Virus record (IMG/VR): IMGVR_UViG_3300046786_000203
Coordinates: 1-52,505 of that record
Length of the DNA: 52,505 bases
Direction: 5' to 3' (one strand)
Origin: a virus
Taxonomy: Duplodnaviria > Caudoviricetes
Part shown: one piece after another, positions 37,499 through 51,268 of the stretch
How positions within the stretch are numbered: position 1 is the stretch's first letter
Layout of the letters: every line of letters begins with the position of its first letter
Translations under genes and position numbers: made by a program
The notes under the pieces: generated by a model
Database searches by the model: none
Seen by the model: only the letters and a program-made list of their open reading frames with translations
Told to the model about the DNA's origin: nothing

Positions 37499-37554
37499 AC
37501 AGGATGCGCTTTTTTACTATTATGAAAAGTATTAAAGTTGCTGAAAGCATCCTA
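37499..37554 (-). ncRNA. CAGCAA-stem RNA 1 (leader of the DUF2828 gene; CAU anticodon-like loop)
   Basis: AGGAUGC-UUU-CAGCAA...GCAUCCU-GU; inner hairpin with UUCAUAA loop. Confidence 0.75.
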
Positions 37555-37561
37555 AAAAATA

Positions 37562-37590
37562 ATTATACTACAGTTTTGATTATTTGTCAA
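37562..37590 (-). promoter_or_regulatory. Consensus sigma70 promoter for RNA 1 and the DUF2828 gene
   Basis: TTGACA-17 nt-TATAAT. Confidence 0.85.
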
Positions 37591-37606
37591 CTGTAGTAAG
37601 TGTAAA

Positions 37607-37757
37607 ACAGGATCGTTGTTGACTGCTTTTTGAATAGGGCCATCACTCCTATTGCGATAGAAGTATTTCAATAGTTACCTTCAACGTCCGTAGACTCCAA
37701 TAACTACCATACATTCCATCAGTTCCAATAAAGTAAATTATTGCTGAGCCGATCCTA
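37607..37757 (-). ncRNA. CAGCAA-stem RNA 2 (about 150 nt)
   Basis: AGGAUCG-GCU-CAGCAA...CGAUCCU-GU. Confidence 0.75.
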
Positions 37758-37769
37758 AAAATTTGTTAA

Positions 37770-37994
37770 ACGGGATGTTCGGAGAACGTAATTTTATTTT
37801 CTGGTTCTACTGTTAACTCCTAGAACCCTATCAACGATTCACGTTGACTAGTTTGTGTTGTGTCTGTACAAACATCATACTCTGTCTTTCCAAAGAGTCA
37901 TCAGTTCCGTCGCCGTCTAGTTTCCTAGATAAAGTCTTTCGAACCGGCTTCTACTGCATTAGTTGAATGTTTTTTAAATGCTGAAATCATCCCT
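37770..37994 (-). ncRNA. CAGCAA-stem RNA 3 (about 225 nt)
   Basis: GGGAUG-AUUU-CAGCAU...CAUCCC-GU; several internal hairpins. Confidence 0.65.
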
Positions 37995-38017
37995 GATTTC
38001 TGATCTTCAATACAAGT

Positions 38018-38046
38018 ATTGTATCTCATTTGACACTTGCTGTCAA
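38018..38046 (-). promoter_or_regulatory. Sigma70 promoter for RNAs 3 and 2
   Basis: TTGACA-17 nt-TACAAT, overlapped by the CAATAC-N2-GTATTG palindrome. Confidence 0.8.
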
Positions 38047-38066
38047 TCTATTTTGGGTAATGTCTT

Positions 38067-38156
38067 TGGCGGAAGCGGTGAGATTCGAACTCACGGTACT
38101 CGTTAAAGTACGACGGTTTTCAAGACCGTTGCGTTAAACCACTCTGCCACGCTTCC
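38067..38156 (-). tRNA. tRNA-Ser(TGA)
   Basis: Cloverleaf, long variable arm, CCA. Confidence 0.95.
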
Positions 38157-38171
38157 GTTATAAATATACTT

Positions 38172-38336
38172 ATGCACACATATGATGCCATTACAAAAAC
38201 CGGTTTAATGATTCACTTGTCCATGAGTGAGGATAATACCGGTTATATTTTAGTACATGATTTAGTTGATTTAAAACTAACCATGAAATTCTTTACTGAG
38301 TTAGAATCTGCGTTATCTTTTATACATTCATTATGA
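38172..38336 (+). CDS. Small hypothetical protein
   Basis: TATAAATA just upstream; ATGA coupling to the next ORF. Confidence 0.5.
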   Translation: MHTYDAITKTGLMIHLSMSEDNTGYILVHDLVDLKLTMKFFTELESALSFIHSL

Positions 38337-38524
38337 GTACAGAAAATAACTATCTAGGGTTGTATAAATTAGCACATAATTTGCCACCTTATCAACCAAC
38401 TAGTAAATGGTGTGCTAATGCACACTATAAAAATGATGAATTCTTTCTGAAAAAAGAATCAATAAAATTTGTCCCTGATAATATTCTCATAACTAAACGA
38501 GAATTTATCAGAGACAATTTTTGA
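38333..38524 (+). CDS. Small hypothetical protein
   Basis: 63 aa ORF filling the space between tRNAs. Confidence 0.5.
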   Translation: MSTENNYLGLYKLAHNLPPYQPTSKWCANAHYKNDEFFLKKESIKFVPDNILITKREFIRDNF

Positions 38525-38525
38525 T

Positions 38526-38599
38526 TGGCATCCCACCAGGGACTCGAACCCCGACCAACGGTTTTGGAGACCGCTATGCTGCCATTACACCAGCGAGAT
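38526..38599 (-). tRNA. tRNA-Trp(CCA)
   Basis: Cloverleaf, loop CUCCAAA. Confidence 0.93.
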
Positions 38600-38603
38600 A
38601 TGT

Positions 38604-38822
38604 TTATCTTTTACCAATACGTTTGAGATAATCTCTACCAACTAACCCTGCTTCAATTTCTTGAAGTGCAGTCACAGTAGGACCTGCTTTAGTAGTTAGT
38701 TTAGGCTTGTGCCCTCTATGCAACTCTCTTACCCTAGCTGCCGCAATAAGAACCAAATCAAATCTGTTTCCAACTTGATTAACAGCTTCTTCACTTGTGT
38801 ATCGTACTCTGCTTTCGGACAT
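38604..38822 (-). CDS. rpoZ: RNA polymerase omega subunit homolog
   Basis: VGNRFDLVLIAAARVREL...TVTALQEIEAG. Confidence 0.88.
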   Translation of the reverse strand: MSESRVRYTSEEAVNQVGNRFDLVLIAAARVRELHRGHKPKLTTKAGPTVTALQEIEAGLVGRDYLKRIGKR

Positions 38823-38849
38823 TTTTAACTTTCGTTTTGTTGATAAACT

Positions 38850-38925
38850 TGGAGCGGGAAAAGAGACTCGAACTCTCGACATTCACCTTGGCAAGGTGAC
38901 GCTCTACCAACTGAGCTATTCCCGC
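38850..38925 (-). tRNA. tRNA-Gly(GCC)
   Basis: Cloverleaf, CCA. Confidence 0.95.
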
Positions 38926-38932
38926 ATTAATT

Positions 38933-39007
38933 TGGTACCTGGACACGGTTTCGAACCGCGGACCCTCTCCGTGTAAAGGAGACGCTCTACCCCTGAGCTA
39001 TCCAGGC
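38933..39007 (-). tRNA. tRNA-Val(TAC)
   Basis: Cloverleaf, loop UUUACAC. Confidence 0.93.
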
Positions 39008-39019
39008 AATATATTCTAT

Positions 39020-39205
39020 TTAACCACCTTGATTAGAGTCTTTAACATTTCCCCAATCAAGTGTGTTATTTTCTTCTTTAGCGTCTGGGAGAGGAGGGGG
39101 AACATAACGTTCTTTCTTTGGCTTCTCTCCGAAGATTCTGTCCATGTTGTTTTGAAATTCAGTTGGACTCACACTGAATGGACGAGGACGAGAACCTTTA
39201 GACAT
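39020..39205 (-). CDS. Small hypothetical protein
   Basis: MSKGSRPRPFSVS...MDRIFG. Confidence 0.65.
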   Translation of the reverse strand: MSKGSRPRPFSVSPTEFQNNMDRIFGEKPKKERYVPPPLPDAKEENNTLDWGNVKDSNQGG

Positions 39206-39372
39206 TACTTAGCTTCCCTCTTACCGTGTCCTTGACGAGATTCATTTTTTGCAATTTCAACAAAACTACGAATGAATGCGCCTCGCACATGTGCGTCACT
39301 AATAAGTGATGCCGCACGTTTTACTGACTTACTAACTTTGACGGCTTTAGCGTCATAACCTCTACATGTCAT
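39205..39372 (-). CDS. Small basic hypothetical protein
   Basis: AAGGA RBS; MTCRGYDAKAVKVSKSVKRAA... Confidence 0.55.
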   Translation of the reverse strand: MTCRGYDAKAVKVSKSVKRAASLISDAHVRGAFIRSFVEIAKNESRQGHGKREAK

Positions 39373-39394
39373 ACTATCTTCCTTTTGTTAAACT

Positions 39395-39471
39395 TGGTCG
39401 GAGTACAAGGATTCGAACCTTGGACCCCCTGGTCCCAAACCAGGTGCGCTACCAGACTGCGCTACACTCCG
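39395..39471 (-). tRNA. tRNA-Pro(TGG)
   Basis: Cloverleaf, CCA. Confidence 0.95.
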
Positions 39472-39477
39472 AATTGT

Positions 39478-39551
39478 TGGATGCGGGTGACAGATTCGAA
39501 CTGCCGATGCTCCGAGCTTATGAGACTGGAGTGGTGACCGCCCTACCCGCG
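39478..39551 (-). tRNA. Atypical initiator-like tRNA-Met(CAT)
   Basis: C1:A72 mismatch, CUCAUAA loop; shortened D arm and bulged anticodon stem. Confidence 0.7.
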
Positions 39552-39566
39552 CAAACTATTTATATC

Positions 39567-39641
39567 TGGTACGTAATAGAAGATTTGAACTTCTGACCTC
39601 TACAATGTCACTGTAGCGTTCTACCCCTGAACTAATCACGC
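39567..39641 (-). tRNA. tRNA-Val(GAC)
   Basis: Cloverleaf, loop GUGACAU. Confidence 0.85.
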
Positions 39642-39643
39642 AT

Positions 39644-39787
39644 TTATCTTGTCAGTTTTCTAACAAGAGTCAAGAAGTAATATCTGAATCCTCGGTACAC
39701 TGGTACTATAGAAAAATCTAAGTAGATACCAATTTCTTTAGGAATGTGACCGTAAGCTTTATTCAATGTTTCATCAGACTTTGGCAC
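39644..39787 (-). CDS. Small hypothetical protein
   Basis: GGGAG RBS, GTG start (MPKSDETLNKAYGHIPKEI). Confidence 0.5.
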   Translation of the reverse strand: MPKSDETLNKAYGHIPKEIGIYLDFSIVPVYRGFRYYFLTLVRKLTR

Positions 39788-39809
39788 GTTTACTCCCTGT
39801 GTTAATGTT

Positions 39810-39885
39810 TGGTGGAGGTGACAGGGATCGAACCCGCGACCTTCTGAATGCAAATCAGACGCTCTCCCAGTTGAGCTACACCCCC
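39810..39885 (-). tRNA. tRNA-Ala(TGC)
   Basis: G3:U70 pair, cloverleaf. Confidence 0.96.
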
Positions 39886-39937
39886 AAATCTACATACTAC
39901 TTATCTCATTATACTCCGTATGTAAGGGAGAGTTCTT

Positions 39938-40022
39938 TGGTGCGACTGTCCGGAATCGAACCGGAACACCTTGCGGCGAGAGATTTTAAGTCTCTTGTGT
40001 CTACCTATTTCACCACAGTCGC
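39938..40022 (-). tRNA. tRNA-Leu(TAA)
   Basis: Cloverleaf with variable arm. Confidence 0.95.
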
Positions 40023-40028
40023 AAATTA

Positions 40029-40182
40029 ACCATAAATTAGTGTACTCGTATGGCAGACTATAAAGAGATACTATCGTCTTTATTAATATAGTATCATAGT
40101 TAGACTATTGTGTGCACCAATAGTCTAACCGAAGTCTGGCAAATTATATACTAAATTAATTTTGAGTACACTAATTTATGGT
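40029..40182 (-). ncRNA. Long-stem structured element overlapping the tRNA-Leu 3' end
   Basis: Perfect 19-bp inverted repeat 40029-40047/40164-40182 plus an internal 12-bp hairpin. Confidence 0.6.
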
Positions 40183-40262
40183 GCGTAAGGAGAGACTCGA
40201 ACTCTCAATCCTCGCGGCGCTGGCTTCTAAGACCAGAGTGTATACCATTCCACCACTTACGC
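40179..40262 (-). tRNA. tRNA-Leu(TAG)
   Basis: Cloverleaf with variable arm. Confidence 0.95.
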
Positions 40263-40280
40263 AAAAACAAACACATAACT

Positions 40281-40350
40281 TTTTAAAGAACAATCAGCGA
40301 TTTCTCACTGTCAATACATGTATTATATATCAAATTTTAATTGAATTCAA
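40281..40350 (-). promoter_or_regulatory. Promoter followed by an rrn-like boxB/boxA leader
   Basis: TTGAAT-17 nt-TATAAT, hairpin CAGTGA-GAAA-TCGCTG, then TGTTCTTTAAAA. Confidence 0.7.
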
Positions 40351-40363
40351 CTATTTTGGGCAT

Positions 40364-41014
40364 TCATATCAGTAATGATAGAGTACTATTTTTAAACATG
40401 TCACTCCAATAACCTACCTTAGGTATCAAGACCCATAGTTTAGATTCACCAAACACTACTAGTGTTCTGTAATTTCTAACTTCATTTAATGCCTCTGATA
40501 CTCCGGGATGAACACTGACAAAATCATCTCCTACTATCAAATTTGTTTCTGCACCGTATTTAATAATGTCATGCTTGACTCCTTCATAGGAATGCGCGCC
40601 ATCAATAAAAACAAAATCATACTCTTTTTCTTTTGTATGACTTTGACTAGTACCTTGATATACAGACAGTTTATTGTACATTATATCACCGATGCAAAAT
40701 CTAAACGCTTCTAACCAATTCTTTTGTTGAGCAATATGTATAGCAACTTTATACATTGATTCACTGCCGGAACAGTTTGAACTAGCGAAGTCGGGAATGT
40801 TTCTAAATGAGCTCCATGTACGTATATCCTCAAATGGATCTATTACTTCCAAAGATACTGAAGAATCTTTTCCGTTGTATAACGCTGTAGTAGACCTACC
40901 TAAAAAACAACCTATTTCTAACATAGAACCATTTTTAGGGACATGTTTAGCTAATATGGTTAGTATACGTAAATCATTTTGCGTCATCCAACCTGGGATA
41001 TCGTTACTACTCAT
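40364..41014 (-). CDS. Class I SAM methyltransferase (Methyltransf_24-like)
   Basis: LEIGCFLGRST, VIDPF, FIDGAHSYEGV and GDDF motifs. Confidence 0.85.
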   Translation of the reverse strand: MSSNDIPGWMTQNDLRILTILAKHVPKNGSMLEIGCFLGRSTTALYNGKDSSVSLEVIDPFEDIRTWSSFRNIPDFASSNCSGSESMYKVAIHIAQQKNWLEAFRFCIGDIMYNKLSVYQGTSQSHTKEKEYDFVFIDGAHSYEGVKHDIIKYGAETNLIVGDDFVSVHPGVSEALNEVRNYRTLVVFGESKLWVLIPKVGYWSDMFKNSTLSLLI

Positions 41015-41028
41015 TTATAAATTAATCT

Positions 41029-41225: not shown

Positions 41226-41243
41226 ATGTATAAATACTGTTCT

Positions 41244-41795
41244 ATGAACAAATACTTATCTAAACTATCATTAAACATTGAACCATTAACCATTGACATT
41301 CGTGACAAGAACGATAAGGGCTACCGTCATTCTGAATTGGGGATGGATGTTATCAATCCCGAAATGAAAGCTTTCTTGGAAAGCTTGGGTGTCGGTGTGC
41401 TAATGGTTGAAGTTTTTTATACTCCTCCCTTTATGACTCGCGGTATACATATTGATACTGCTCAAGGTGGGGATATAACTAAACTTAATTGGGTATATTG
41501 CGAAGACACTCATATCATGAATTGGTATGAACCAAAACCTGATGCACCTCGCAATATTGCACTGACTGCTGTATCTACTAACTATGTAAGTTACAAAGAA
41601 TCAGAAGTAAACCTGGTTCATTCTGAAAAGATGACTACTAACAATGTAATAGTGCAAGTGGGCACTCCACACAATGTAAGAAATCTACGTTACCCTCGTT
41701 GGGCACTATGTTTCACCATCTGTTACTTAAAAGACAAGTCTAGAATTACTATAGCCGAAGCACAAGAGATTTTCAAAGACTATCTAATAAACTGA
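41244..41795 (+). CDS. Cupin/2OG-Fe(II) oxygenase-like protein
   Basis: IHID...KLNWVY...VQVGTPHNV.N..R; paralog of 50189..50722. Confidence 0.65.
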   Translation: MNKYLSKLSLNIEPLTIDIRDKNDKGYRHSELGMDVINPEMKAFLESLGVGVLMVEVFYTPPFMTRGIHIDTAQGGDITKLNWVYCEDTHIMNWYEPKPDAPRNIALTAVSTNYVSYKESEVNLVHSEKMTTNNVIVQVGTPHNVRNLRYPRWALCFTICYLKDKSRITIAEAQEIFKDYLIN

Positions 41796-41880: not shown

Positions 41881-41944
41881 ACAGGATGCATTTTTACGGT
41901 TTTGATTAAAAGTCAAATGTATAAATGTTGCTGGTAGCATCCTA
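41881..41944 (-). ncRNA. CAGCAA-stem RNA 4 (Lys UUU anticodon stem-loop)
   Basis: AGGAUGC-UAC-CAGCAA...UUUGA-CUUUUAA-UCAAA...GCAUCCU-GU. Confidence 0.78.
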
Positions 41945-42144: not shown

Positions 42145-42762
42145 TCACTTCATAGTGACTTCATTGGGCTTATGTCGTTCACCTTTAAATTGAAACTCTT
42201 CCTTCAACTTAAAGTTAGTTACAAAAACCACTCTAGGTATTCCTGACAAATTACTATGAACATAATGCAACAACCATCCGGGAAAAATTAACATTTGACC
42301 GGACTCTGGGCGATGCCTATATGCATTGTAATGCTTATGTGAATCTAAACTAACTAATCCTAAGTTAGCACGTGGATCAATAAATTCTAAATCACCTGAT
42401 GTAGGGGTCACTTGACAGTAATACACACCTGATAAATGCGAAGACCTATGATTATGCATCCTTAAGTCTTGATTCGCTAATCTTGAATCACACCAACCTT
42501 CTTCCATGTGAAAGAACTCAGGCTTGTATTCAAATTCAGGATGACATTCATTTGCAAAGGTTGCCGCATTTGTCAAAAACAAATCATGCAACGTTTTGAT
42601 TGCCGGAACGTCATGTCGAATATTCCAAATATCATTATACAATCTAAAATTGTACTTGTTATCTGTCAACCCATCGACCTTCAGTAAGTCTTCATTTAGT
42701 GTACTAGCATTTTCTACTTCATAGATACCTATATTAGTAGGAAACAATTTCAAGTGAGCCAT
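42145..42762 (-). CDS. Putative 2OG-Fe(II) oxygenase (TIGR02466-like)
   Basis: HNH..HLSGVYY, GDLEFIDPR and LIFPGWLLHYV motifs. Confidence 0.85.
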   Translation of the reverse strand: MAHLKLFPTNIGIYEVENASTLNEDLLKVDGLTDNKYNFRLYNDIWNIRHDVPAIKTLHDLFLTNAATFANECHPEFEYKPEFFHMEEGWCDSRLANQDLRMHNHRSSHLSGVYYCQVTPTSGDLEFIDPRANLGLVSLDSHKHYNAYRHRPESGQMLIFPGWLLHYVHSNLSGIPRVVFVTNFKLKEEFQFKGERHKPNEVTMK

Positions 42763-42872: not shown

Positions 42873-42988
42873 TACCATATAGAAACATACTCTGCAGGAA
42901 TTGAACCTGCCCACCAGATACTATTGATCCGGCTGTAATCCGCTACATCTGCCTGGCCAGAAGCATTTGAATATGTTTTTATATGGTA
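42873..42988 (-). ncRNA. Long-stem element with a T-arm, overlapping the tRNA-Lys 3' end
   Basis: 20-nt arms (18 identical positions); inner GCAGG-UUCAAUU-CCUGC. Confidence 0.55.
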
Positions 42989-43058
42989 GGGGCACAGAGA
43001 ATCGAACTCTGATAGACCGGTTAAAAGCCGGATATTCTAGCCGTTGAATTATACCCCC
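42984..43058 (-). tRNA. tRNA-Lys(TTT)
   Basis: Cloverleaf, loop CUUUUAA. Confidence 0.93.
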
Positions 43059-43276: not shown

Positions 43277-44497
43277 TCAACTCTTTTGTTGCAGTGATAT
43301 CCCAAAAGTTTCTTGGAAATTATCATTGCGTATTGAATCCATCTTTTCAGTAAAGTCTGAGAACAAAGAAGGATCACCAGGAACTCTATCTAATAGGTTT
43401 CTTTTGATGCCCTTAAGCTCTGTAGCAAAAATTAAAAAGTTAGGTGCTGTTAGTATCTCAACAGCCTTATCTATTTCTTCTATTGCTTTCTCTCTTAACT
43501 CACCGGTCAATCTATTATAATTCAAGTGTTCTGCGAACCTAACGTGATAGCACTTTGTCTGAATAGTGTTGTTGTCTGCGTACAGTCTCATTAAGAAACT
43601 AGCAAGACTTGACACATCCAATAGTGTATACGCTGAGATTGCAGTGTTGAAAAATATATTGAACGGCTTACCAAGCTTGTTGAATTCAATTACGTTTTTC
43701 TCTATAGTACTCCACGGAGTACCTGTACGAATATACTCTGCTGTTTTGCCTACACCGTCTATACTCATTACAAATTCAATACTTTTGAATTTCTTTAGTC
43801 TTTCAACAAATAACGGATTATAGACACTACAGTTAGTAAACAACTCTAAATCAATTCGATGACTGATGTTGTTATCAATCAAGTGATCCAAGTACTCATA
43901 GTATTCTTTGATGATGAAGGGTTCTCCACCAGTTAAACAAACTAAGCGTAAGTTTTTCGATGTTAATGATAACTCTTTTAGTTCTTCAACTGAGTGGCGA
44001 TCAATCGTTACGATAGACTTTTTTGCCTCTCTATCAATAACACTGATCTCCGATACAAAAGGTAGATTGTGTTCAATCTTTTCTTTTGCCCATTCTGAAC
44101 TAGAGGTTTCGTCACACATCTTGCATTTCATGTTGCAAAGGTTGCTGAATCTAAACTCTAGGCGATAAGGATCAGTAGGACTATTTTCATCGAACTTATT
44201 ATAAAACCATTGATCTTCATACTCTGGTTCTGGACCAGTGTAATAGTAATGCCACCAGGCACCCCTAGTACTTTTGAGACCTTGGTTCTCAATGTTCTTA
44301 CAAACCTTGCACGGTTCCGGAACAGTTCCGGACATCATGTCTGTTTTTAATTTCTTAAGCCAATCACCATTGATGTATTCTTGCGGTGATGCTTCAAATT
44401 CGTTTCTAATGACATGACACGGGCTAGGAGAATTCATTTGATAATAAATGTGACTCCACGGTGCCGGACAAAAGAACTTTTCTGAAAATTTAGCCAT
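43277..44497 (-). CDS. Radical SAM protein with twitch/SPASM-like Cys domain
   Basis: CNMKCKMC (CX3CX2C), GGEP, SIDG; N-terminal FCPAPW and CKVC. Confidence 0.9.
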   Translation of the reverse strand: MAKFSEKFFCPAPWSHIYYQMNSPSPCHVIRNEFEASPQEYINGDWLKKLKTDMMSGTVPEPCKVCKNIENQGLKSTRGAWWHYYYTGPEPEYEDQWFYNKFDENSPTDPYRLEFRFSNLCNMKCKMCDETSSSEWAKEKIEHNLPFVSEISVIDREAKKSIVTIDRHSVEELKELSLTSKNLRLVCLTGGEPFIIKEYYEYLDHLIDNNISHRIDLELFTNCSVYNPLFVERLKKFKSIEFVMSIDGVGKTAEYIRTGTPWSTIEKNVIEFNKLGKPFNIFFNTAISAYTLLDVSSLASFLMRLYADNNTIQTKCYHVRFAEHLNYNRLTGELREKAIEEIDKAVEILTAPNFLIFATELKGIKRNLLDRVPGDPSLFSDFTEKMDSIRNDNFQETFGISLQQKS

Positions 44498-44554
44498 TAC
44501 ATATCCTTGCTGTAGTAAGTGATATTTATCGTCATACAACACTGTCAAAGATAT

Positions 44555-44648: not shown

Positions 44649-45191
44649 ATGAAATACTATCATTCTGTTTCAATTAATAATCTGTCTGTTATTCAAGCTA
44701 AAGCATTTAAGTTATTCCCAATGCAACACTTGAACAAGACTAAACTATTCTATCCACCAAATAACATAGAGTTATTTTTAAGTATACCTGAACTCAAAGA
44801 AGAATTAGATAGATTAGGTTGGACAGAACATGTAGATTCGTTTGGTTTTTATATCGTACAAAAAACAAAAGGATCCACACTTCATACTGACACTGGTGAT
44901 CGTAAGTACAGTTTTAACATACCTATACTAAATTGCAAAGAAACACTAGTCAACTTTTATACAACTGACTCTGAACCCGAAGTTCAGATACACGGTGAAG
45001 GAGTTGACTATAACAAATACGAGGTCGATAAATGTACCTTAGTTGATTCATTAGAAATGAATACACCTAACATTATCAATGTAAAAGAGGTACATAACAT
45101 TGTCAATGACAATCATAGACCTAGAATTACTTTATTAATCAGATTAAAGAGTACTCTAAATCTTGACCATTTATTTTATGAAACACATTGA
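44649..45191 (+). CDS. Cupin/2OG-Fe(II) oxygenase-like protein
   Basis: LHTD...FNIPI...VHNIVN...RITL. Confidence 0.65.
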   Translation: MKYYHSVSINNLSVIQAKAFKLFPMQHLNKTKLFYPPNNIELFLSIPELKEELDRLGWTEHVDSFGFYIVQKTKGSTLHTDTGDRKYSFNIPILNCKETLVNFYTTDSEPEVQIHGEGVDYNKYEVDKCTLVDSLEMNTPNIINVKEVHNIVNDNHRPRITLLIRLKSTLNLDHLFYETH

Positions 45192-45636
45192 ATACTTAGA
45201 ACTACCATCAGTACCCGAGCGTTTTTTAAAACCAGTTGAGGAGATAATTGCACTACCTCTAAAAGAAATGACTGCGGTTCCTGAAGTATATCATAACGTG
45301 TTTAACACTAGATACGTTGAAGAAGACTTAAACGAATGGTTAAAAACTATTTTTGATTTTCCTATGTATGCACAATATCAATTAATATACAGAGGAATCC
45401 CTGTACACAAGGACAAAGACGATAGACTGCTTGCCTACAACTACTTATTAGCTACGGGTGGTGACAACGTAATCACGACCATATATGATGACAACATGAA
45501 ACTATTACAATTTGAAAAATTGCAGTTAAAACGTTGGCATAGAATAGAAACAGGATATTTTCATGGTATACATGGAATATCAATAGGCTCAGTAAGGTGT
45601 AGCATAAGCATAACACCAGTAACTGGCAGAGAGTGA
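45178..45636 (+). CDS. Cupin/2OG-Fe(II) oxygenase-like protein
   Basis: VHKD...YNYLL...WH.I....FHGI. Confidence 0.65.
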   Translation: MKHIEYLELPSVPERFLKPVEEIIALPLKEMTAVPEVYHNVFNTRYVEEDLNEWLKTIFDFPMYAQYQLIYRGIPVHKDKDDRLLAYNYLLATGGDNVITTIYDDNMKLLQFEKLQLKRWHRIETGYFHGIHGISIGSVRCSISITPVTGRE

Positions 45637-46328: not shown

Positions 46329-46415
46329 TGGTGGAGACGACTGGAGTCGAACCAGTAGTGCCTTTCGGGCGGCGGATTTACAGTCCACTGGGGTTACCAA
46401 TTTTCCTACATCTCC
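46329..46415 (-). tRNA. tRNA-Tyr(GTA)
   Basis: Cloverleaf with variable arm. Confidence 0.93.
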
Positions 46416-47308: not shown

Positions 47309-47869
47309 CTATGAAAGCAAGATTCTAGAATGCTTTGGAACACCTGCTAGCAAGTATTCCATTTGATCTGCAAGAATAGTTCTATGCTGTAGAATCATGT
47401 TTTCGTAATGGTTAGGTGCATAAGGTGCATACAATAGTTCCATACGTGCTTCTTTCAAAGACTTATGGCCCTTCTTGCTGTTACATTCTTTACATGCAGT
47501 AACCACGTTCATCCAAGTGTTTTCACCACCACTGTATCTAGGTACAATGTGGTCACGACTTAGATTGTTGTAGTTAGGGTGATGTTCACCGCAGTATGCA
47601 CACACGTATCGGTCACGACCAAACAATGTTCGGTTAGTTAATGCTACAGTGGCGTGCTTGTGTGGGTTAAAGCTATGACCCTTAATCGCAATGATTGAGG
47701 GAGTTTCTAGGTAGCTTTCGGTTCCGTCGTTTTGAATACCACCACGATACTTAGCCACAACTTCACCCATTGACCATGCTACTGAATCAGTTGCGTGGTA
47801 GGCGATTGCGTCATCGTATGAAATCCACTGCCGGGGAACGCCCGAAATGTCTAGTGCTAGAACAGCCAT
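47309..47869 (-). CDS. HNH endonuclease
   Basis: RDRYVCAYCG, DHIVP..GG..TWMNVVTACKECNSKK. Confidence 0.92.
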   Translation of the reverse strand: MAVLALDISGVPRQWISYDDAIAYHATDSVAWSMGEVVAKYRGGIQNDGTESYLETPSIIAIKGHSFNPHKHATVALTNRTLFGRDRYVCAYCGEHHPNYNNLSRDHIVPRYSGGENTWMNVVTACKECNSKKGHKSLKEARMELLYAPYAPNHYENMILQHRTILADQMEYLLAGVPKHSRILLS

Positions 47870-48029: not shown

Positions 48030-48108
48030 TGGTACCCCCTCTCGGAGTCGAACCGAGAGAACTCTTCCTTTTGAGAGAAGCGACTTTGCCAGATTTGTCC
48101 AAGGGGGC
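48030..48108 (-). tRNA. tRNA-Leu(CAA), short variable region
   Basis: Loop CUCAAAA; no long variable arm. Confidence 0.85.
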
Positions 48109-48113
48109 ATATC

Positions 48114-48287: not shown

Positions 48288-48301
48288 TATTATCTCCTAC
48301 A

Positions 48302-48378
48302 TGGTACCCCAGATGGGACTCGAACCCACAAATACAACGACCTCAACGTTGCGTGTATACCAATTCCACCACCGGGGC
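48302..48378 (-). tRNA. tRNA-Leu(GAG), short variable region
   Basis: Loop UUGAGGU; no long variable arm. Confidence 0.85.
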
Positions 48379-48386
48379 ATTATAAA

Positions 48387-48499
48387 ACAGGATACATTCT
48401 TGACGAATGCTCTACCAATGAGCTAATCTGGCATGAAGCCAAATACTGGAGTCGAACCAGTAACCTATCGTTTGTGATAGTTTTGCTGTATGTATCCTA
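48387..48499 (-). ncRNA. CAGCAA-stem RNA 6: circularly permuted tRNA-like (YrlA-like)
   Basis: AGGAUAC-AUA-CAGCAA; CUAUC/GAUAG arm; T arm ACUGG-UUCGACU-CCAGU; loop-closed acceptor AUUUGGC/GCCAGAU; D arm UAGCUCAUUGGUAGAGC; GUAUCCU-GU. Confidence 0.85.
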
Positions 48500-48503
48500 A
48501 AAT

Positions 48504-48560
48504 TGGCGGGACATTTTTGATTGCAGTTAAGATACTTGCCAGCATCTATTTTTTTGTCCC
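48504..48560 (-). ncRNA. Mini RNA: acceptor-like stem ending in GCCA, no D or T arm
   Basis: GGGACA...UGUCCC-G-CCA between two family members. Confidence 0.35.
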
Positions 48561-48565
48561 ATAAC

Positions 48566-48688
48566 TGGTGTTGCCGCTGGGATTCGAACCCAGATTTCTT
48601 CCTTGACATGGATTAAGAAGAATGCTGAACGGACTCTAAAAACAGAGTCACCCTTTTATAAGCGTCCTAACCATTAGACGACAGCAAC
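48566..48688 (-). tRNA. tRNA (Asp-GUC-like) with a 48-nt insertion carrying the CAGCA module
   Basis: Acceptor GUUGCUG/CGGCAAC-ACCA, D and T arms intact; insertion contains GACUCU-G-UUUUU-AGAGUC-CGUU-CAGCAU. Confidence 0.7.
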
Positions 48689-48689
48689 A

Positions 48690-49055
48690 TTAAATTCCTA
48701 TATTCTTTCTTCCTCGTTTTCTAGCAAATGAAATACTGCCCTTCATTGCTGTAGCACAAAGAAACTTGTCACCTTTTTTCAAAGTGAATTCGTTTAGTCT
48801 AAATCCTTTGATGACTCTATCACCATTCCACCATTGACGTTGAGTTTCAATGTAACCTAGTTCTTCTAACTGATTACGCAACTTTGTAAACTCGTCATGG
48901 TCTTTGTGGGAAAGACTATAACTCTTATCGTATCCTTTTAAGATTTTGACAATATCTTCATGAGTAGGATTATTGCGATCTTTGATAAAGTCATGTTCTT
49001 CTCTGACTGCTACATCGCAAATAAACTGCTCGTCAATTGTAAATTGTTTCAGCAT
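48690..49055 (-). CDS. Hypothetical protein
   Basis: AAGGAG RBS before MLKQFTIDE. Confidence 0.7.
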   Translation of the reverse strand: MLKQFTIDEQFICDVAVREEHDFIKDRNNPTHEDIVKILKGYDKSYSLSHKDHDEFTKLRNQLEELGYIETQRQWWNGDRVIKGFRLNEFTLKKGDKFLCATAMKGSISFARKRGRKNIGI

Positions 49056-49069
49056 TGTTACTCCTTGAT

Positions 49070-49145
49070 TGGTGGCGACGGTCGGACTCGAACCAACCAC
49101 ACACGGATTTTCAATCCGTTGCTCTACCTGATGAGCTACGTCGCC
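49070..49145 (-). tRNA. tRNA-Phe(GAA)
   Basis: Cloverleaf. Confidence 0.93.
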
Positions 49146-49162
49146 ACTTAAAACCTATTAGG

Positions 49163-49235
49163 GGTGTTCTATGGGGAACGATCCCATACTACCAAGTTCA
49201 CAGCATGGTGTGCAGACCACTACACTAAGAACACC
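49163..49235 (-). tRNA. tRNA-His(GTG), no encoded CCA, atypical T loop
   Basis: G-1:C73, loop CUGUGAA, T loop AUCGUUC; flanks extend the acceptor stem. Confidence 0.8.
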
Positions 49236-49276
49236 CCTAATAAGTCTTTTGATAAATAAAGTTTTAAGGAAACAAT

Positions 49277-49606
49277 ATGGACGAACTAATCGCCGATATA
49301 AAAAATATCTTGCATCTGGCGCCGGCTAGAAGTTCTATTATAATGTTTAAAGCATTAATTGAAAAGCAATCAGGGTCAGTTAAAGTAACTATAGAATCTA
49401 CATTAGAATACTATGAGACACGAACTAACGATGACTGGTCTACTCCTATACTAACCAACCAACGACACATGGAAAAAATCAGAGATACTGGTCTTGCTAT
49501 TGGTTCATTAGAAGCCTTTTTGCATGATAGAAATATCACGTATGATATTTCATATCAAGAAGGTGAAGCTGAAGAAATTATTACAGAGGTAACAATATAT
49601 GCTTAA
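49277..49606 (+). CDS. Hypothetical protein
   Basis: ATAAATA upstream and AAGGA RBS. Confidence 0.6.
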   Translation: MDELIADIKNILHLAPARSSIIMFKALIEKQSGSVKVTIESTLEYYETRTNDDWSTPILTNQRHMEKIRDTGLAIGSLEAFLHDRNITYDISYQEGEAEEIITEVTIYA

Positions 49607-50192
49607 TACACCTGAGGTTATAAAATACAATAAATTTAGACATACAGTACGTTCATTTAATGTAAATGAAACAGTTAGTGATGAATTACTAGAGTATGTA
49701 AATGCCACTATTAATGAATATATTACAACACACAATCTAGATGTTAATGTAGTAGTGCTTACTGACCGTAGTGCAATTCAACAACTATATGCTAATGCAT
49801 TGCATCAGGATGAACCAAAAGAATTTGCATGGAAAACAAATCCACAAATACTCGCGCCGCTTGTATTGTCATTGATACCAAAGAGGAATGGCAATAAAAT
49901 GGAAATGCTTCATATCGGAAGACTGTATGCTAACATAGCACTACACGCTATTGATCTAGGTTATTCGTCTGGATTCTGCACGTGCTTTAACTTACGTGCT
50001 ATTGAATCATACGAAAAAATTGCACACATTTCCAATAGAGATCCTGATACTGATGAAAGAATTCGTCCTACATTTTTGGCTATAGGACATATGTTAGATG
50101 CTACTAAAGCTCATAACTGGTCTTACATAGATCATGGTCATTATATACAAAGTCATGTTAAACCACATGACAACTACATTACCATTGCATGA
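49599..50192 (+). CDS. Nitroreductase-like protein
   Basis: RHTVRSF, AP.VL, A..LGYSSGFC and LAIGH motifs. Confidence 0.7.
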   Translation: MLNTPEVIKYNKFRHTVRSFNVNETVSDELLEYVNATINEYITTHNLDVNVVVLTDRSAIQQLYANALHQDEPKEFAWKTNPQILAPLVLSLIPKRNGNKMEMLHIGRLYANIALHAIDLGYSSGFCTCFNLRAIESYEKIAHISNRDPDTDERIRPTFLAIGHMLDATKAHNWSYIDHGHYIQSHVKPHDNYITIA

Positions 50193-50722
50193 TATATTGC
50201 AAATCATTAAACTTAACAGTATCACCTTTAATAAATGAAAGTGATATTGTTAAGCAAACTGAAAGGCATATAGAGATAAATCTAGATAGAATCAATCCAA
50301 TCCTATATGCATATTTAAAATTACTCGGAGTACGAGTAAGCTACGCAGAATGCTTTCGTTTAAATCCATATCAAGAAAATAACATACACACTGATACAGT
50401 GAGAGGAGATTATGTTAAAATCAATTGGATTTACGGTGGCAAAGACAGCACTATGAGTTGGTATACACCAAACACAATCACTACAAAAAATCTAATGCAC
50501 ACTGCAACCGGAACTACGTATGAAAATTATACAGTAGATGAAGTTACACTAGCACATCGACAGTCATTGAGAAGCCCTAGCTTAGTACAAGTAGGTGTTC
50601 CGCATGATGTTCAAAACTATAGTGAAGTGCGTCATGCACTTAGCCTTGTCATAGCTAAAGGCGACAATCGACTTACGATGACAGAAGCTATTGACATATT
50701 CAAAGAATACATCTTAGAATAA
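50189..50722 (+). CDS. Cupin/2OG-Fe(II) oxygenase-like protein
   Basis: IHTD...KINWIYGG...VQVGVPHDVQN; paralog of 41244..41795. Confidence 0.65.
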   Translation: MIYCKSLNLTVSPLINESDIVKQTERHIEINLDRINPILYAYLKLLGVRVSYAECFRLNPYQENNIHTDTVRGDYVKINWIYGGKDSTMSWYTPNTITTKNLMHTATGTTYENYTVDEVTLAHRQSLRSPSLVQVGVPHDVQNYSEVRHALSLVIAKGDNRLTMTEAIDIFKEYILE

Positions 50723-50830
50723 ACAGGATGATGTGTCTAAAGCCGGGAGTCGAACCCACGACACGCCCCCAAATGGGCTGGCCTGCAAAAGTTTTGGCTG
50801 CAGAAATTTTATGTTGCTGTAGTCATCCTA
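50723..50830 (-). ncRNA. CAGCAA-stem RNA 7 (anticodon-like, variable-like and T arms)
   Basis: AGGAUGA-CUA-CAGCAA...CUGCAG/UUGCAG hairpin...GGG-UUCGACU-CCC...UCAUCCU-GU. Confidence 0.78.
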
Positions 50831-50834
50831 TAAC

Positions 50835-50909
50835 TGGTGGATGTAAGTAGATTCGAACTACTGACCTGCTCCGTATGAAGGAGATGCACTACCGCTGTGC
50901 TATACATCC
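50835..50909 (-). tRNA. tRNA-Met(CAT)
   Basis: Cloverleaf, loop UUCAUAC. Confidence 0.9.
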
Positions 50910-50917
50910 ATTAATCT

Positions 50918-50992
50918 TGGTGCTGATGGCGAGATTTGAACTCACGACCTCTTCCTTACCAAGGAAGTACACTACCACTGTGTTACATCAGC
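50918..50992 (-). tRNA. tRNA-Thr(GGT)
   Basis: Cloverleaf. Confidence 0.92.
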
Positions 50993-50995
50993 ATA

Positions 50996-51113
50996 ACAGG
51001 TTCTCTTTTTTCGTGCTACCACTACACTAACGTGATGACCAATTCACGTCCGGGATTCGAACCCGGCCTCTCTTTTTTACAGAAAGATTATTTTAATTGC
51101 TGAAAAGAACCTA
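50996..51113 (-). ncRNA. CAGCAA-stem RNA 8: circularly permuted tRNA with a Tyr GUA loop (YrlA-like)
   Basis: AGGUUCU-UUU-CAGCAA; UCUUU-CUGUAAA-AAAGA; CCGGG-UUCGAAU-CCCGG; ACGUGA/UCACGU loop-closed acceptor; D arm UAGUGUAGUGGUAGCAC; AGAACCU-GU. Confidence 0.88.
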
Positions 51114-51124
51114 AAGGTCAAACT

Positions 51125-51200
51125 TGGCACCCCCTGATGGACTCGAACCACCGCATGTCGGAATCAAAATCCGATGCCTTACCAACTTGGCGAAGAGGGT
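51125..51200 (-). tRNA. tRNA-Gln(TTG)
   Basis: Cloverleaf. Confidence 0.93.
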
Positions 51201-51208
51201 ATAATATA

Positions 51209-51268
51209 ACAGGATGCTGTTTGCTTTTTTCCAAATAAAAAGTTTTTTAATTTGCTGGAAGCATCCTA
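51209..51268 (-). ncRNA. CAGCAA-stem RNA 9 (short, one inner hairpin)
   Basis: AGGAUGC-UUC-CAGCAA...CUUUUU-AUUUGGA-AAAAAG...GCAUCCU-GU. Confidence 0.75.

What the first reader, a model, noticed from the sequence alone, without database searches (positions are those of the whole stretch)
37499..51268. Family members display isolated anticodon stem-loops matching known anticodon-nuclease targets
Seen: RNA 4 encloses UUUGA-CUUUUAA-UCAAA, a 5-bp stem whose 7-nt loop is identical to that of the phage's own tRNA-Lys(UUU). RNA 8 has UCUUU-CUGUAAA-AAAGA, the same loop as its tRNA-Tyr. RNA 1 has a weaker stem with UUCAUAA (CAU). RNA 9 has a 7-nt AUUUGGA loop (UUG, less certain) and the 48566 tRNA has AUGUCAA (GUC). 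Established: PrrC cuts tRNA-Lys(UUU), enteric VapC cuts tRNA-fMet, and colicin E5 cuts Tyr/His/Asn/Asp tRNAs. Inference: these non-chargeable RNAs could be decoys or sensors for tRNA-cleaving anti-phage defences, held or recycled by the Ro-like protein.
Basis: partly seen in the sequence, partly recalled or inferred. Interest (0 to 1): 0.88.

Follow-up and report, generated by a model that had tools for sequence, protein, structure and literature searches.

The report
Anticodon-arm mimics on phage Y-like RNAs
A freshwater giant phage carries, inside its tRNA gene cluster, small RNAs that join a conserved handle (probably held by the phage's Ro60-shaped protein) to copies of tRNA anticodon hairpins, which may serve as bait in the fight over tRNA-cutting host defences, though no experiment shows this.

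Summary
Partly confirmed. Two of the five cited hairpins are exact anticodon-arm mimics. RNA 4 (41901-41917) has the loop of the phage's tRNA-Lys(UUU). RNA 8 (51071-51087) has the loop of its tRNA-Tyr. Shuffles of the 8 family RNAs gave two such hits in 1 of 5000 trials.

In 80 related loci, 45 of 176 unique family RNAs carry a 5-bp/7-nt hairpin whose loop equals a real tRNA loop; shuffles average 0.85. Orthologues keep the stem and C32-U33...A37-A38 while the anticodon letters change. RNA 4's 17-nt hairpin matches cellular tRNA-Lys(UUU) arms and none of 348 distinct phage tRNA arms.

RNA 1 and RNA 9 are only anticodon-like. The 48566 loop is not supported.

Mimicry is not general. In 54 more distant loci only 1 of 84 handle RNAs has a real loop, and the Escherichia phage HY02 and Citrobacter phage Moogle RNAs lack U33.

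The neighbouring DUF2828 protein models as a Ro60 ring, and a handle RNA precedes the gene in 77 of 78 loci.

The decoy or sensor role is plausible but untested.

This scan has found the same design before on other DNA. I found no paper describing it.

The parts
36045..37472 (-). Gene for a 475-aa DUF2828 + DUF7788 (vWA-like) protein with a Ro60-shaped model
   Evidence: Pfam DUF7788 at 5.4e-41 and DUF2828 at 4e-26. PHROG 850 'RNA-binding protein'. AF2 model with pLDDT 91.9 and pTM 0.91. The top 13 PDB matches are all Ro60/Rsr/TROVE; the best is 2i91_B at E 2.4e-8 and TMq 0.65. DxSxS at D276/S278/S280 is invariant in 71 sequences.
37499..37554 (-). RNA 1: short handle RNA directly upstream of the protein gene. 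The hairpin has a CAUAA-type loop and is only anticodon-like.
   Evidence: In the orthologue class (32 unique) the loops are 7-9 nt. A handle RNA lies within 150 nt upstream of the gene in 77 of 78 loci.
37607..37757 (-). RNA 2: about 150-nt handle RNA with no anticodon-like arm
37769..37995 (-). RNA 3: about 225-nt member with a variant handle (AGGGAUG ... CAUCCCGUU, CAGCAU)
   Evidence: Read. The strict pattern did not catch it.
41881..41944 (-). RNA 4: handle plus an isolated Lys(UUU) anticodon arm (hairpin 41901-41917), 8 nt upstream of tRNA-Met
   Evidence: Orthologue class. The 17-nt hairpin is identical to 11 cellular tRNA-Lys(UUU) arms and to none of 348 distinct phage tRNA arms.
48387..48499 (-). 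YrlA-like permuted tRNA body on the handle. The hairpin in the anticodon position has a 6-nt loop.
   Evidence: Rfam RF02553 scores 29.6 bits against a gathering score of 69. Fold.
48566..48690 (-). tRNA-like gene with a handle hairpin inserted after the D arm. The claimed AUGUCAA loop is not supported.
   Evidence: The fold gives an 8-bp stem and an 11-nt loop. ARAGORN did not call it.
50723..50830 (-). Handle RNA with a T-arm-like hairpin and no anticodon-like arm
50996..51113 (-). RNA 8: handle, then Tyr-type anticodon arm (51071-51087), T arm, loop-closed acceptor stem and D arm
   Evidence: Alignment of 14 unique orthologues.
51209..51268 (-). RNA 9: short handle RNA with a possible CUUUUU-AUUUGGA-AAAAAG hairpin
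   Evidence: The same loop occurs in a KVP40 handle RNA (L083:12989-13047).
42984..43058 (-). Phage tRNA-Lys(UUU), used as comparator: loop CUUUUAA, stem UCCGG/CCGGU
46329..46415 (-). Phage tRNA-Tyr(GUA), used as comparator: loop CUGUAAA

Best explanation
The RNAs are Y-RNA-like partners of the phage's Ro60-shaped protein. A constant handle (a closing stem, 3 nt, then CAGCAA at the 5' side, and CCUGUU at the 3' side) is the presumed protein-binding site. The variable cargo of some members is a tRNA anticodon arm, either alone (RNA 4) or inside a permuted, unchargeable tRNA body (RNA 8).

They sit between tRNA genes, so they should be released by tRNA processing together with the phage tRNAs. 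I think the arm most likely works as bait for host proteins that read anticodon arms, above all tRNA-cutting defence nucleases. It would act as a competing substrate or inhibitor, or as a sentinel, and the protein would stabilise or hold it.

Shown here: the mimicry, its conservation, the turnover of the anticodon letters, the gene linkage and the protein fold. Inferred: RNA-protein binding, the identity of the baited protein, and any protective effect.
For: 1. Mimicry far above chance: 45 of 176 unique RNAs have a real tRNA loop against a shuffle mean of 0.85 and maximum of 4. Window alone: two such hits in 1 of 5000 shuffles. Short RNAs.

2. Selection on the arm. The CUUUUAA loop sits on 4 different stems, CUUCUAA on 3 and CUGUAAA on 3, with changes on both strands.

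3. In 14 RNA 8 orthologues the stem and C32, U33, A37, A38 never vary. The anticodon reads GUA, GGA, GAA, GCA, GCG or ACG, and position 35 is among the most variable columns. RNA 4 orthologues switch between UUU and UCU.

4. RNA 4's 15-nt core hit 85 places in 80 bacterial loci. Of these, 74 are tRNA-Lys(UUU) anticodon arms and 11 match all 17 nt. None of 31 phage tRNA-Lys(UUU) genes has this arm. None of the 17 distinct mimic arms equals any of 348 distinct phage tRNA arms.

5. RNA 4 carries U36-A-A-U-C-A41. The section read from PMC12409363 gives this as the PARIS AriB site of E. coli tRNA-Lys. Its abstract names Lys(UUU) and Thr(UGU) as prime targets and says cleavage does not depend on tRNA modification. 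Both arms are displayed in this clade.

6. A passage of preprint PMC13692257 reports that a Cas13 enzyme cleaves isolated anticodon stem-loops.

7. Linkage and fold.

8. Contigs from three RNA libraries cover 36000-37988 at word depth 35-155, against under 10 for most other bins that hold no tRNA gene. A DNA run is roughly flat at 14-19 where no tRNA lies. This is a weak hint of expression only.
Against: There is no experiment of any kind.

At least 10 anticodons are displayed. They include Phe, Cys, Ser(GGA) and Ile(UAU), for which none of the papers I read names a nuclease.

Position 35 may simply be unconstrained rather than under diversifying selection.

The 'Arg(UCU)' arms sit on the Lys-type stem and carry UAAU, which only 1 of 17 sampled bacterial tRNA-Arg(UCU) genes has. 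They are therefore not faithful copies of that tRNA.

AriB also needs D-loop contacts, and a T5 tRNA-Lys given the E. coli cleavage site was still not cleaved. A bare arm may not be recognised.

The Escherichia phage HY02 and Citrobacter phage Moogle handle RNAs have 7-nt loops without U33. Enterobacterial hosts are where these nucleases are known.

In 54 more distant loci only 7 of 84 RNAs show U33 plus a purine at 37 (shuffles 6.7), and 1 of 84 has a real loop (shuffles 0.52).

The exact 17-nt Lys match could be partly luck, because the stems are AU-rich and several arms were available to match. The bacterial sample was selected by that very pattern and is mostly gut bacteria, not the unknown host.
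Confidence: 0.4

Rival explanations
1. The arms bait or titrate other readers of anticodon arms: A37 or wobble modification enzymes, aminoacyl-tRNA synthetases, or the ribosomal decoding site. The purpose would be to retune translation or tRNA modification during infection.
For: All exact mimic loops share C32-U33...A37-A38, and all but the ACG loop have U or A at position 36. From recall, these are the tRNA classes whose A37 is hypermodified (t6A or i6A), and small anticodon hairpins are accepted by several such enzymes. The GNA series of RNA 8 orthologues keeps A36-A37-A38 constant. From recall, anticodon-arm mimics that bind a synthetase are known, such as the E. coli thrS operator.
Against: No enzyme of this kind was identified next to the RNAs. 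The array's radical SAM, methyltransferase and 2OG oxygenase genes gave only generic family hits. The AU-rich make-up of the RNAs could by itself favour U or A at position 36.
Confidence: 0.25
2. The arms are inherited pieces of the tRNA genes from which these RNAs arose. They are kept as a stable structural module or processing signal, and the loop sequence has no reader.
For: The family includes permuted tRNA bodies and a tRNA with an inserted handle. Cargo is heterogeneous: loops are 8 nt in 10 and 9 nt in 14 of 75 short RNAs. Mimicry is nearly absent in distant relatives.
Against: Relics should decay evenly. Instead positions 32, 33, 37 and 38 and the pairing are held while the stems change on both strands. 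No mimic arm equals a phage tRNA arm, so they are not recent copies.
Confidence: 0.2
3. At least RNA 1 is a cis-acting leader through which the protein controls its own mRNA. Its CAU-like loop has no link to tRNA.
For: A handle RNA lies within 150 nt upstream of the gene in 77 of 78 loci. RNA-library contigs run from the coding region across RNA 1 and RNA 2 (X6 record 9 spans 37002-37877). RNA 1-class loops vary in length and are not real tRNA loops.
Against: A contig does not prove a single transcript (note). This reading says nothing about RNA 4 and RNA 8, which lie 4-14 kb away among tRNA genes.
Confidence: 0.15

Closest known systems
Bacterial and phage Ro60 (Rsr) with YrlA-type Y RNAs (Rfam RF02553; Chen et al. 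2014, PMC4201824: abstract and passages read)
   Same: A ring-shaped Ro60-like protein is encoded beside small RNAs closed by a 5'/3' stem. At least one RNA mimics tRNA with a T arm, a closed acceptor stem and a D arm, in the same order as here.
   Different: The protein matches DUF2828/DUF7788; no TROVE match appears among the six Pfam families listed at E up to 10. The handle carries CAGCAA. Only 1 of 8 window RNAs matches RF02553 at full model length, at 29.6 bits against a gathering score of 69. Some members carry nothing but an anticodon arm. In the passages I read, only D. radiodurans Yrn1 is modelled with an anticodon arm, and its loop has 6 nt.
Thermus phage phiLo Ro60 with Yrl1 and Yrl2 (PMC12135203: abstract and section 17 read; PDB 9l5y)
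   Same: A phage Ro60 ring shown to bind phage-encoded Y-like RNAs and host PNPase, and proposed as a counter to host defence. 9l5y is the third-best structural match to the model here.
   Different: Those RNAs are defined by a CGAA motif. Neither 'anticodon' nor 'tRNA-like' occurs in that paper's main text.
Phage tRNAs as nuclease-resistant replacements (PMC10264068 passages; T5 tRNAs against PARIS, PMC12409363 abstract and sections 22-23)
   Same: Same arena, a phage tRNA array facing host nucleases that attack the anticodon arm, and the same targets (Lys UUU, Thr UGU).
   Different: Those are functional tRNAs whose arms differ from the host's. The RNAs here cannot be charged, and RNA 4 keeps the cell-type arm.
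AcrIIIA1 protein-RNA anti-CRISPR of a staphylococcal phage (PMC11662646: abstract and passages read)
   Same: Precedent for a phage protein that carries tRNA-derived RNAs which bind a host nuclease (RNase R).
   Different: The protein is unrelated; the authors report a single BLASTp homologue. Its RNAs are fragments of host tRNA and tmRNA, not phage-encoded designed RNAs.
Dictyostelium Class I RNAs (Rfam RF01414; PMC7919456, search listing only)
   Same: A short closing stem followed by a motif ending in CAGCAA. Three window RNAs match the model weakly at 31.2, 28 and 23.7 bits.
   Different: All three are below the gathering score of 41.5. The organisms are eukaryotes, and I did not test for a link to a DUF2828 protein.

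Membership tests
Ro60 / Y RNA particle | Ro60 ring (helical repeats) plus a vWA domain with a MIDAS motif | tested here: met
   AF2 model with pLDDT 91.9. The top 13 PDB matches are all Ro60/Rsr/TROVE over about 505-567 aligned columns. DxSxS is invariant in 71 sequences.
Ro60 / Y RNA particle | Sequence match to the Pfam TROVE domain | tested here: not met
   At E up to 10 only DUF7788, DUF2828 and four weak families (Dit_C, VWA_2, HTH_AraC, VWA) are listed. phmmer against PDB chains found no Ro60.
Ro60 / Y RNA particle | RNA reaches the Rfam YrlA (RF02553) gathering score | tested here: not met
   The best hit is 29.6 bits against 69, and a second partial hit is 20.3 bits. No non-tRNA family reaches its gathering score.
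Ro60 / Y RNA particle | RNA genes lie beside the protein gene on the same strand and are closed by a covarying 5'/3' stem | tested here: met
   256 hits on the plus strand against 5 on the minus strand. 77 of 78 loci have one within 150 nt upstream. Stems AUGC/GCAU, UUCU/AGAA, AUAC/GUAU and AUCG/CGAU.
Ro60 / Y RNA particle | The protein physically binds the RNA | not testable with these tools
   No tool here models protein-RNA binding, and no data exist.
tRNA anticodon stem-loop (mimic) | 5-bp stem, 7-nt loop, U33 and a purine at 37 | tested here: met
   Met for RNA 4 and RNA 8. RNA 1 has a 9-nt loop in the MFE. The RNA 9 hairpin is not in the MFE. 48566 has an 11-nt loop.
tRNA anticodon stem-loop (mimic) | Loop identical to a genuine tRNA anticodon loop | tested here: met
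   RNA 4 equals tRNA-Lys(UUU) and RNA 8 equals tRNA-Tyr. RNA 1 and RNA 9 match none of the 82 loops.
tRNA anticodon stem-loop (mimic) | Correct place in a tRNA body: the arm, then 4-5 nt, then the T arm | tested here: met
   RNA 8 and its 14 orthologues.
Functional tRNA | Open acceptor stem with a 3' end that can be charged | tested here: not met
   ARAGORN does not call them. The acceptor stem is closed by a loop or absent.
Decoy or inhibitor of anticodon nucleases | Resembles the sensitive cellular arm rather than the phage's own tRNA | tested here: inconclusive
   RNA 4 equals 11 cellular tRNA-Lys arms and 0 of 31 phage ones. UAAU at 36-39 occurs in 16 of 16 bacterial but 3 of 21 phage tRNA-Thr(UGU) genes. 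However, the bacterial sample was chosen by the RNA 4 pattern, the host is unknown, and the Arg-type arms do not fit.
Decoy or inhibitor of anticodon nucleases | Is cleaved by or binds a nuclease and protects the phage | not testable with these tools
   This needs bench work.
Dictyostelium Class I RNA (RF01414) | Reaches the family's gathering score | tested here: not met
   31.2, 28 and 23.7 bits against 41.5.

The most novel reading that the evidence does not exclude
A widespread phage Ro60-like particle uses interchangeable RNA cartridges that copy the anticodon arms of cellular tRNAs to blunt or sense tRNA-cutting immunity of the PrrC, PARIS or retron type. Rapid swapping of the anticodon letters would track the specificities of local host nucleases. 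This would be an RNA-based counter-defence aimed at tRNA-targeting systems and a concrete function for a Y-RNA-like family.
Probability: 0.3. Interest if true: 0.9.

Novelty: new variant of a known kind. Interest (0 to 1): 0.76.

Why it matters
What tRNA-mimicking Y RNAs are for is still open. The passages I read from Chen et al. 2014 leave the function unsettled.

Here the mimicry is reduced to one recognisable element, the anticodon arm, with the anticodon letters changing between close relatives. That yields a direct test: which protein binds or cuts that arm?

If the answer is a defence nuclease, phage tRNA arrays would hold decoys as well as replacement tRNAs. The large DUF2828 family, present in 702 phage records, would then gain a function.

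If the answer is a modification enzyme or a synthetase, it would reveal a new way for phages to retune translation.

Tried and rejected
Rfam. At gathering scores only tRNAs match. At E-value thresholds only weak YrlA and Dictyostelium Class I matches appear.

Close phage relatives by DNA. None was found; only tRNA-sized pieces match.

NCBIfam gave no hit for the protein. phmmer against PDB sequences gave nothing meaningful.

AcrIIIA1. I suspected that Twillingate gp17 was the DUF2828 homologue, because the homologue in phage 6ec has locus tag PHAGE6E_17. I rejected this: the passages I read report one BLASTp homologue and no confident structural match.

First general handle scan. It was too loose, matched coding DNA and flooded the output. 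I replaced it with a stricter rule (AG or GG, then N5 ... N5', then CUG, CCG or CUA). That rule still gives 11 minus-strand against 87 plus-strand hits in set 2, so roughly a tenth of those hits may be false.

A single distant protein as query for IMG/VR found nothing. An alignment query worked. I dropped 26 of its 80 loci because their protein is at least 60% identical to the window's.

RNA repair genes in four related large phage records. RtcB was found in 0 of 4 and the Rnl2-type ligase family in 0 of 4. The T4 Rnl1-type family was found in 1 of 4, at G003:112748-113308, inside the range of L064. This is too thin to use either way.

Sequencing runs. All runs are contigs, not raw reads, so RNA ends or cuts inside the loops cannot be seen. 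Stretches with little cover in the RNA libraries, which is most of the tRNA array, say nothing. Short structured RNAs are in any case poorly kept in such libraries (recalled).

The array's radical SAM, methyltransferase, 2OG oxygenase and nitroreductase-like genes gave only generic names.

Supplementary files of the papers were not opened. Supplemental tables of Chen et al. 2014 and figure S3 of PMC12409363 may bear on which phage RNAs and which tRNA arms were already listed.

Claim that this is not in print. It rests on these searches: 'DUF2828' (5 papers listed, none with a phage title); 'Y RNA, Ro60, phage, tRNA-like' (4 papers); 'TROVE, bacteriophage, tRNA, anticodon nuclease'; 'anticodon stem-loop, phage, decoy, anticodon nuclease'; 'Ro60, phage, Y RNA, Thermus'; and 'tRNA mimic, bacteriophage, anticodon loop, small RNA, counter-defense'. 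Subscription-only papers are not covered.

Full report
SETTING. The window is a 52.5-kb virus record. ARAGORN finds 36 tRNA genes, all on the minus strand, between 38067 and 52425. Rfam at gathering scores finds only tRNAs.

Downstream of the array on the minus strand lies a 475-aa gene, 36045-37472. It matches Pfam DUF7788 (5.4e-41) and DUF2828 (4e-26) and PHROG 850 'RNA-binding protein'. It has relatives in 702 phage records, all below 60% identity. DNA of the region has no close relative among deposited phages. The runs that hold it are freshwater metagenomes.

THE RNA FAMILY. On the minus strand I find eight elements built alike. Each has UAGG plus 4 nt, then 3 nt, then CAGCAA at the 5' side. 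The complement of the 4 nt plus CCUGUU closes the RNA at the 3' side. The interiors range from about 35 to about 205 nt.

The closing stems differ and stay paired: AUGC/GCAU, UUCU/AGAA, AUAC/GUAU, AUCG/CGAU.

In 80 IMG/VR loci whose DUF2828 protein is 71-98% identical, the same pattern occurs 256 times on the gene's strand and 5 times on the other. There are 251 copies upstream of the gene and 5 downstream. A copy ends within 150 nt of the start codon in 77 of the 78 loci that have enough upstream sequence.

The window RNAs lie between tRNA genes. RNA 4 ends 8 nt before tRNA-Met. RNA 8 lies between tRNA-Gln and tRNA-Thr. tRNA processing should therefore release them.

One member, 48387-48499, matches Rfam YrlA over the whole model. 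It scores only 29.6 bits against a gathering score of 69.

THE PROTEIN. An AlphaFold2 model from 71 sequences has pLDDT 91.9 and pTM 0.91. Its 13 best PDB matches are all Ro60, Rsr or TROVE structures. The best is 2i91_B at E 2.4e-8 and TMq 0.65. They include the Ro60 of Thermus phage phiLo. A DxSxS motif at D276, S278 and S280 is invariant.

At sequence level Pfam lists no TROVE match at E up to 10. 'Ro60-shaped' is therefore tested. Membership in TROVE by sequence is not met.

THE FIVE CITED LOOPS. RNA 4 and RNA 8 are as described. Their 7-nt loops equal those of the phage's tRNA-Lys(UUU) and tRNA-Tyr.

For RNA 8 the energy model prefers a register shifted by 2 nt. That register breaks in 3 of 14 orthologues. 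The 5-bp register is intact in all 14 and puts the hairpin 4-5 nt before the T arm, as in a tRNA.

RNA 1 folds with a 4-bp stem and a 9-nt loop. RNA 9's hairpin is not in the minimum-energy fold. Neither loop is found in any of 945 tRNAs of the window and its relatives.

The element at 48566-48690 folds as a tRNA with a handle hairpin inserted after the D arm. Its anticodon arm has an 8-bp stem and an 11-nt loop, so the cited AUGUCAA loop is not supported.

CHANCE. In the window, 681 interior nt hold two hairpins (5 bp, 7 nt) whose loop is one of the phage's 32 tRNA loops. Shuffles reach two in 1 of 5000. The remaining 48,716 nt hold five on both strands together, one of them in an uncalled tRNA-like gene.

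Across the window and the 80 loci there are 176 unique family RNAs. Of these, 45 have such a hairpin with one of the 82 real loops. In 200 dinucleotide shuffles the mean is 0.85 and the maximum is 4.

Of 75 unique short RNAs, the main hairpin loop is 7 nt in 40, 8 nt in 10 and 9 nt in 14. Among the 40 seven-nt loops:
- 35 have U33
- 39 have a purine at position 37
- 29 equal a real tRNA loop

Shuffles give 2.6 seven-nt loops and 0.04 real loops.

The sequences are related, so these counts overstate the number of independent events. Even so, real loops occur in many separate RNA classes.

WHAT IS DISPLAYED (counts of unique RNAs).
- CUUUUAA, Lys: 10 RNAs on 4 different stems
- CUUCUAA, Arg UCU: 10 on 3 stems
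- CUGUAAA, Tyr: 8 on 3 stems
- CUUGUAA, Thr UGU: 5
- CUUGAAA, Ser UGA: 3
- CUGGAAA, Ser GGA: 3
- CUGAAAA, Phe: 3
- CUUAUAA, CUACGAA and CUGCAAA: 1 each

In the 14 RNA 8 orthologues the stem and C32, U33, A37 and A38 never change. The anticodon reads GUA, GGA, GAA, GCA, GCG or ACG. Position 35 is among the most variable columns of the alignment, and the acceptor-like stem covaries.

In 14 of the 15 RNAs sorted into the RNA 4 class the loop is CUUUUAA or CUUCUAA. The stems are UUUGA/UCAAA, UUAGA/UCUAA or UUCAA/UUGAA, which differ on both strands. The fifteenth, L063, does not align.

This keeps the frame of an anticodon loop and lets the anticodon vary. It fits either diversifying selection or a single unconstrained position. 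I cannot tell which.

CELL-TYPE OR PHAGE-TYPE ARM? The 15-nt core of RNA 4's hairpin was scanned against one genome per bacterial species.

Of 85 matches in those loci, 74 are the anticodon arm of an ARAGORN-called tRNA-Lys(UUU). Eleven of them equal RNA 4's hairpin in all 17 nt.

None of 31 tRNA-Lys(UUU) genes of the related phages has this arm. None of the 17 distinct mimic arms equals any of 348 distinct phage tRNA arms; the nearest is one mismatch from a tRNA-Asn.

RNA 4 therefore carries U36-A-A-U-C-A41. Section 22 of PMC12409363 gives this as the PARIS AriB site in E. coli tRNA-Lys. There a U39 change abolishes cleavage and an A41 change inhibits it. Twenty of the 31 phage tRNA-Lys(UUU) genes lack U39 and all 31 lack A41.

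UAAU at positions 36-39 occurs in 16 of 16 sampled bacterial tRNA-Thr(UGU) genes but in 3 of 21 phage ones. The Thr-type mimic has it.

Caveats on this comparison:
- The bacterial loci were chosen by the RNA 4 pattern itself.
- They are mostly gut taxa, and the host is unknown.
- The Arg-type mimic carries UAAU although only 1 of 17 bacterial tRNA-Arg(UCU) genes does.
- AriB also needs D-loop contacts, which a bare arm lacks.

LIMITS OF THE MIMICRY. Handle RNAs occur beside the gene in cultured phages, but exact anticodon loops are rare there. Escherichia phage HY02 and Citrobacter phage Moogle have 7-nt loops without U33. KVP40 has one RNA with RNA 9's loop AUUUGGA. In Listeria phage LP-048 two of the three tandem RNAs have no 5-bp/7-nt hairpin and the third has the loop UGUCUAA.

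In 54 IMG/VR loci with a protein 41-59% identical to the window's (26 of 80 were dropped as closer), 84 unique handle RNAs were found within 6 kb of the gene. Seven show U33 plus a purine at 37, against 6.7 in shuffles. One has a real loop, an Asn arm in L228, against 0.52 in shuffles.

In the close set the real-loop RNAs lie mostly 1-10 kb upstream, among tRNAs:
- 12 of 117 within 150 nt of the gene
- 4 of 66 at 150-1000 nt
- 29 of 51 at 1-6 kb
- 7 of 17 beyond 6 kb

The distant set holds few tRNA arrays: 117 tRNAs against 945. Absence there is therefore not proven. Still, the anticodon arm is one cargo type among several, not a defining feature of the family.

EXPRESSION. Contigs from three metatranscriptome libraries cover 36000-37988, which holds the gene and RNAs 1-3, at word depth 35-155. 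Most other bins are below 10, apart from bins that hold tRNA genes. A DNA run is flat at about 14-19 where no tRNA lies. This is a weak hint of transcription. It cannot show ends or cuts.

READING. The constant handle next to a Ro60-shaped protein points to a Y-RNA-like particle. Phage Ro60 particles of the canonical kind are known:
- YrlA near TROVE proteins (PMC4201824)
- phiLo Ro60 binding Yrl1 and Yrl2 and damping host PNPase (PMC12135203)

What differs here is the protein branch, the CAGCAA handle, and cargo reduced to an anticodon arm with changing anticodon letters.

My preferred reading is bait for tRNA-cutting defence nucleases, at 0.4. The grounds:
- Lys(UUU) and Thr(UGU) are the prime AriB targets, and AriB does not need tRNA modifications (abstract).
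- PrrC cuts tRNA-Lys(UUU), and retron Ec78 depletes a host tRNA (passages of PMC10264068).
- A Cas13 enzyme is reported to cut isolated anticodon stem-loops (passage of PMC13692257).
- Phage tRNA arrays are themselves proposed as counter-measures (PMC10264068).

Rivals are bait for modification enzymes, synthetases or the ribosome (0.25), an inherited structural module (0.2), and, for RNA 1, a self-regulating leader (0.15). The RNA 1 reading concerns one RNA only and could hold alongside the others, so the four figures are not meant to sum to 1. None is excluded.

EARLIER NOTES OF THIS SCAN. The same design has been noted and followed up on other DNA. 176 notes hold the words DUF2828, CAGCAA, anticodon and RNA, and 46 also hold the words mimic, decoy, nuclease and PrrC. 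I used these notes as leads only. The frame-kept, letters-changing pattern reported in e1-5809772 is seen independently here.

My results are more restrictive on one point. In the more distant loci I sampled, mimicry is not above chance.

Noticed in passing
window 51278-51366 (-): A tRNA-like gene that ARAGORN does not call. Rfam tRNA-Sec scores 38.6 bits against a gathering score of 47. It has a Ser(UGA)-type arm CUAGU-CUUGAAA-ACUAG and a long extra arm, and it sits directly before RNA 9.
   Followed up: partly
window 48566-48690 (-): A normally ordered tRNA-like gene (acceptor, D arm, T arm, CCA). A hairpin made of the family's 3' and 5' handle strands plus CAGCA is inserted after the D arm. 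This is the mirror image of the permuted RNAs.
   Followed up: partly
window 52085-52150 (-): An unannotated element between tRNA-Val and tRNA-Gly with two T-arm-like hairpins (GACGG-UUCGAUU-CCGUC and CUAGG-UUCGAAU-CCUAG).
   Followed up: no
window 51210-51266, 37500-37552, 50997-51111 (-): Three family RNAs give weak matches to Rfam Dictyostelium Class I RNA (31.2, 28 and 23.7 bits against 41.5). They share a closing stem followed by a motif ending in CAGCAA. Whether those amoebae pair such RNAs with a DUF2828 protein was not tested.
   Followed up: partly
L083 (Vibrio phage KVP40) 12989-13047; also 12279-12366, 14344-14557, 16586-16833: KVP40 carries handle RNAs inside its tRNA cluster. One has the same CUUUU-AUUUGGA-AAAAG hairpin as window RNA 9, although the proteins are only 43% identical. 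The record annotates five 'tRNA-Pseudo' genes in the same region.
   Followed up: partly
L085 (Listeria phage LP-048) 2157-2421 and 5346-6491: Three tandem handle RNAs lie directly upstream of the DUF2828 gene. An RtcB-like ligase gene lies 1.3 kb downstream, which recalls the bacterial rsr-yrlBA-rtcBA operon (recalled).
   Followed up: no
G003:C1:112748-113308 (record of L064): A T4 Rnl1-type RNA ligase match (50.7 bits) lies within the DUF2828/tRNA neighbourhood of one related 338-kb phage. The other three large relatives have none, and none of the four has RtcB or the Rnl2-type family.
   Followed up: partly
window 38604-38882, 40364-41014, 42145-42762, 43277-44548, 47309-47869 (-); 49599-50192 (+): Protein genes are interleaved with the tRNAs: an RNA polymerase omega-like gene (Rpb6 family), a methyltransferase, a 2OG-Fe(II) oxygenase, a radical SAM protein, an HNH endonuclease and a nitroreductase-like protein. 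Their roles are unknown.
   Followed up: partly
window 41226-41795, 44649-45636, 49277-50722 (+): Open reading frames on the opposite strand lie inside the minus-strand tRNA array. None has a family match except the nitroreductase-like one.
   Followed up: partly
window 36000-37988: Contigs of three metatranscriptome libraries cover the DUF2828 gene and RNAs 1-3 at much higher word depth (35-155) than most of the array away from tRNA genes. The DNA run is flat.
   Followed up: partly
window 48387-48499 and orthologues (for example L045:4783, L064:809): In the YrlA-like class the hairpin in the anticodon position has a 4-6-nt loop in some relatives and an exact CUUCUAA or CUUAUAA anticodon loop in others.
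   Followed up: partly
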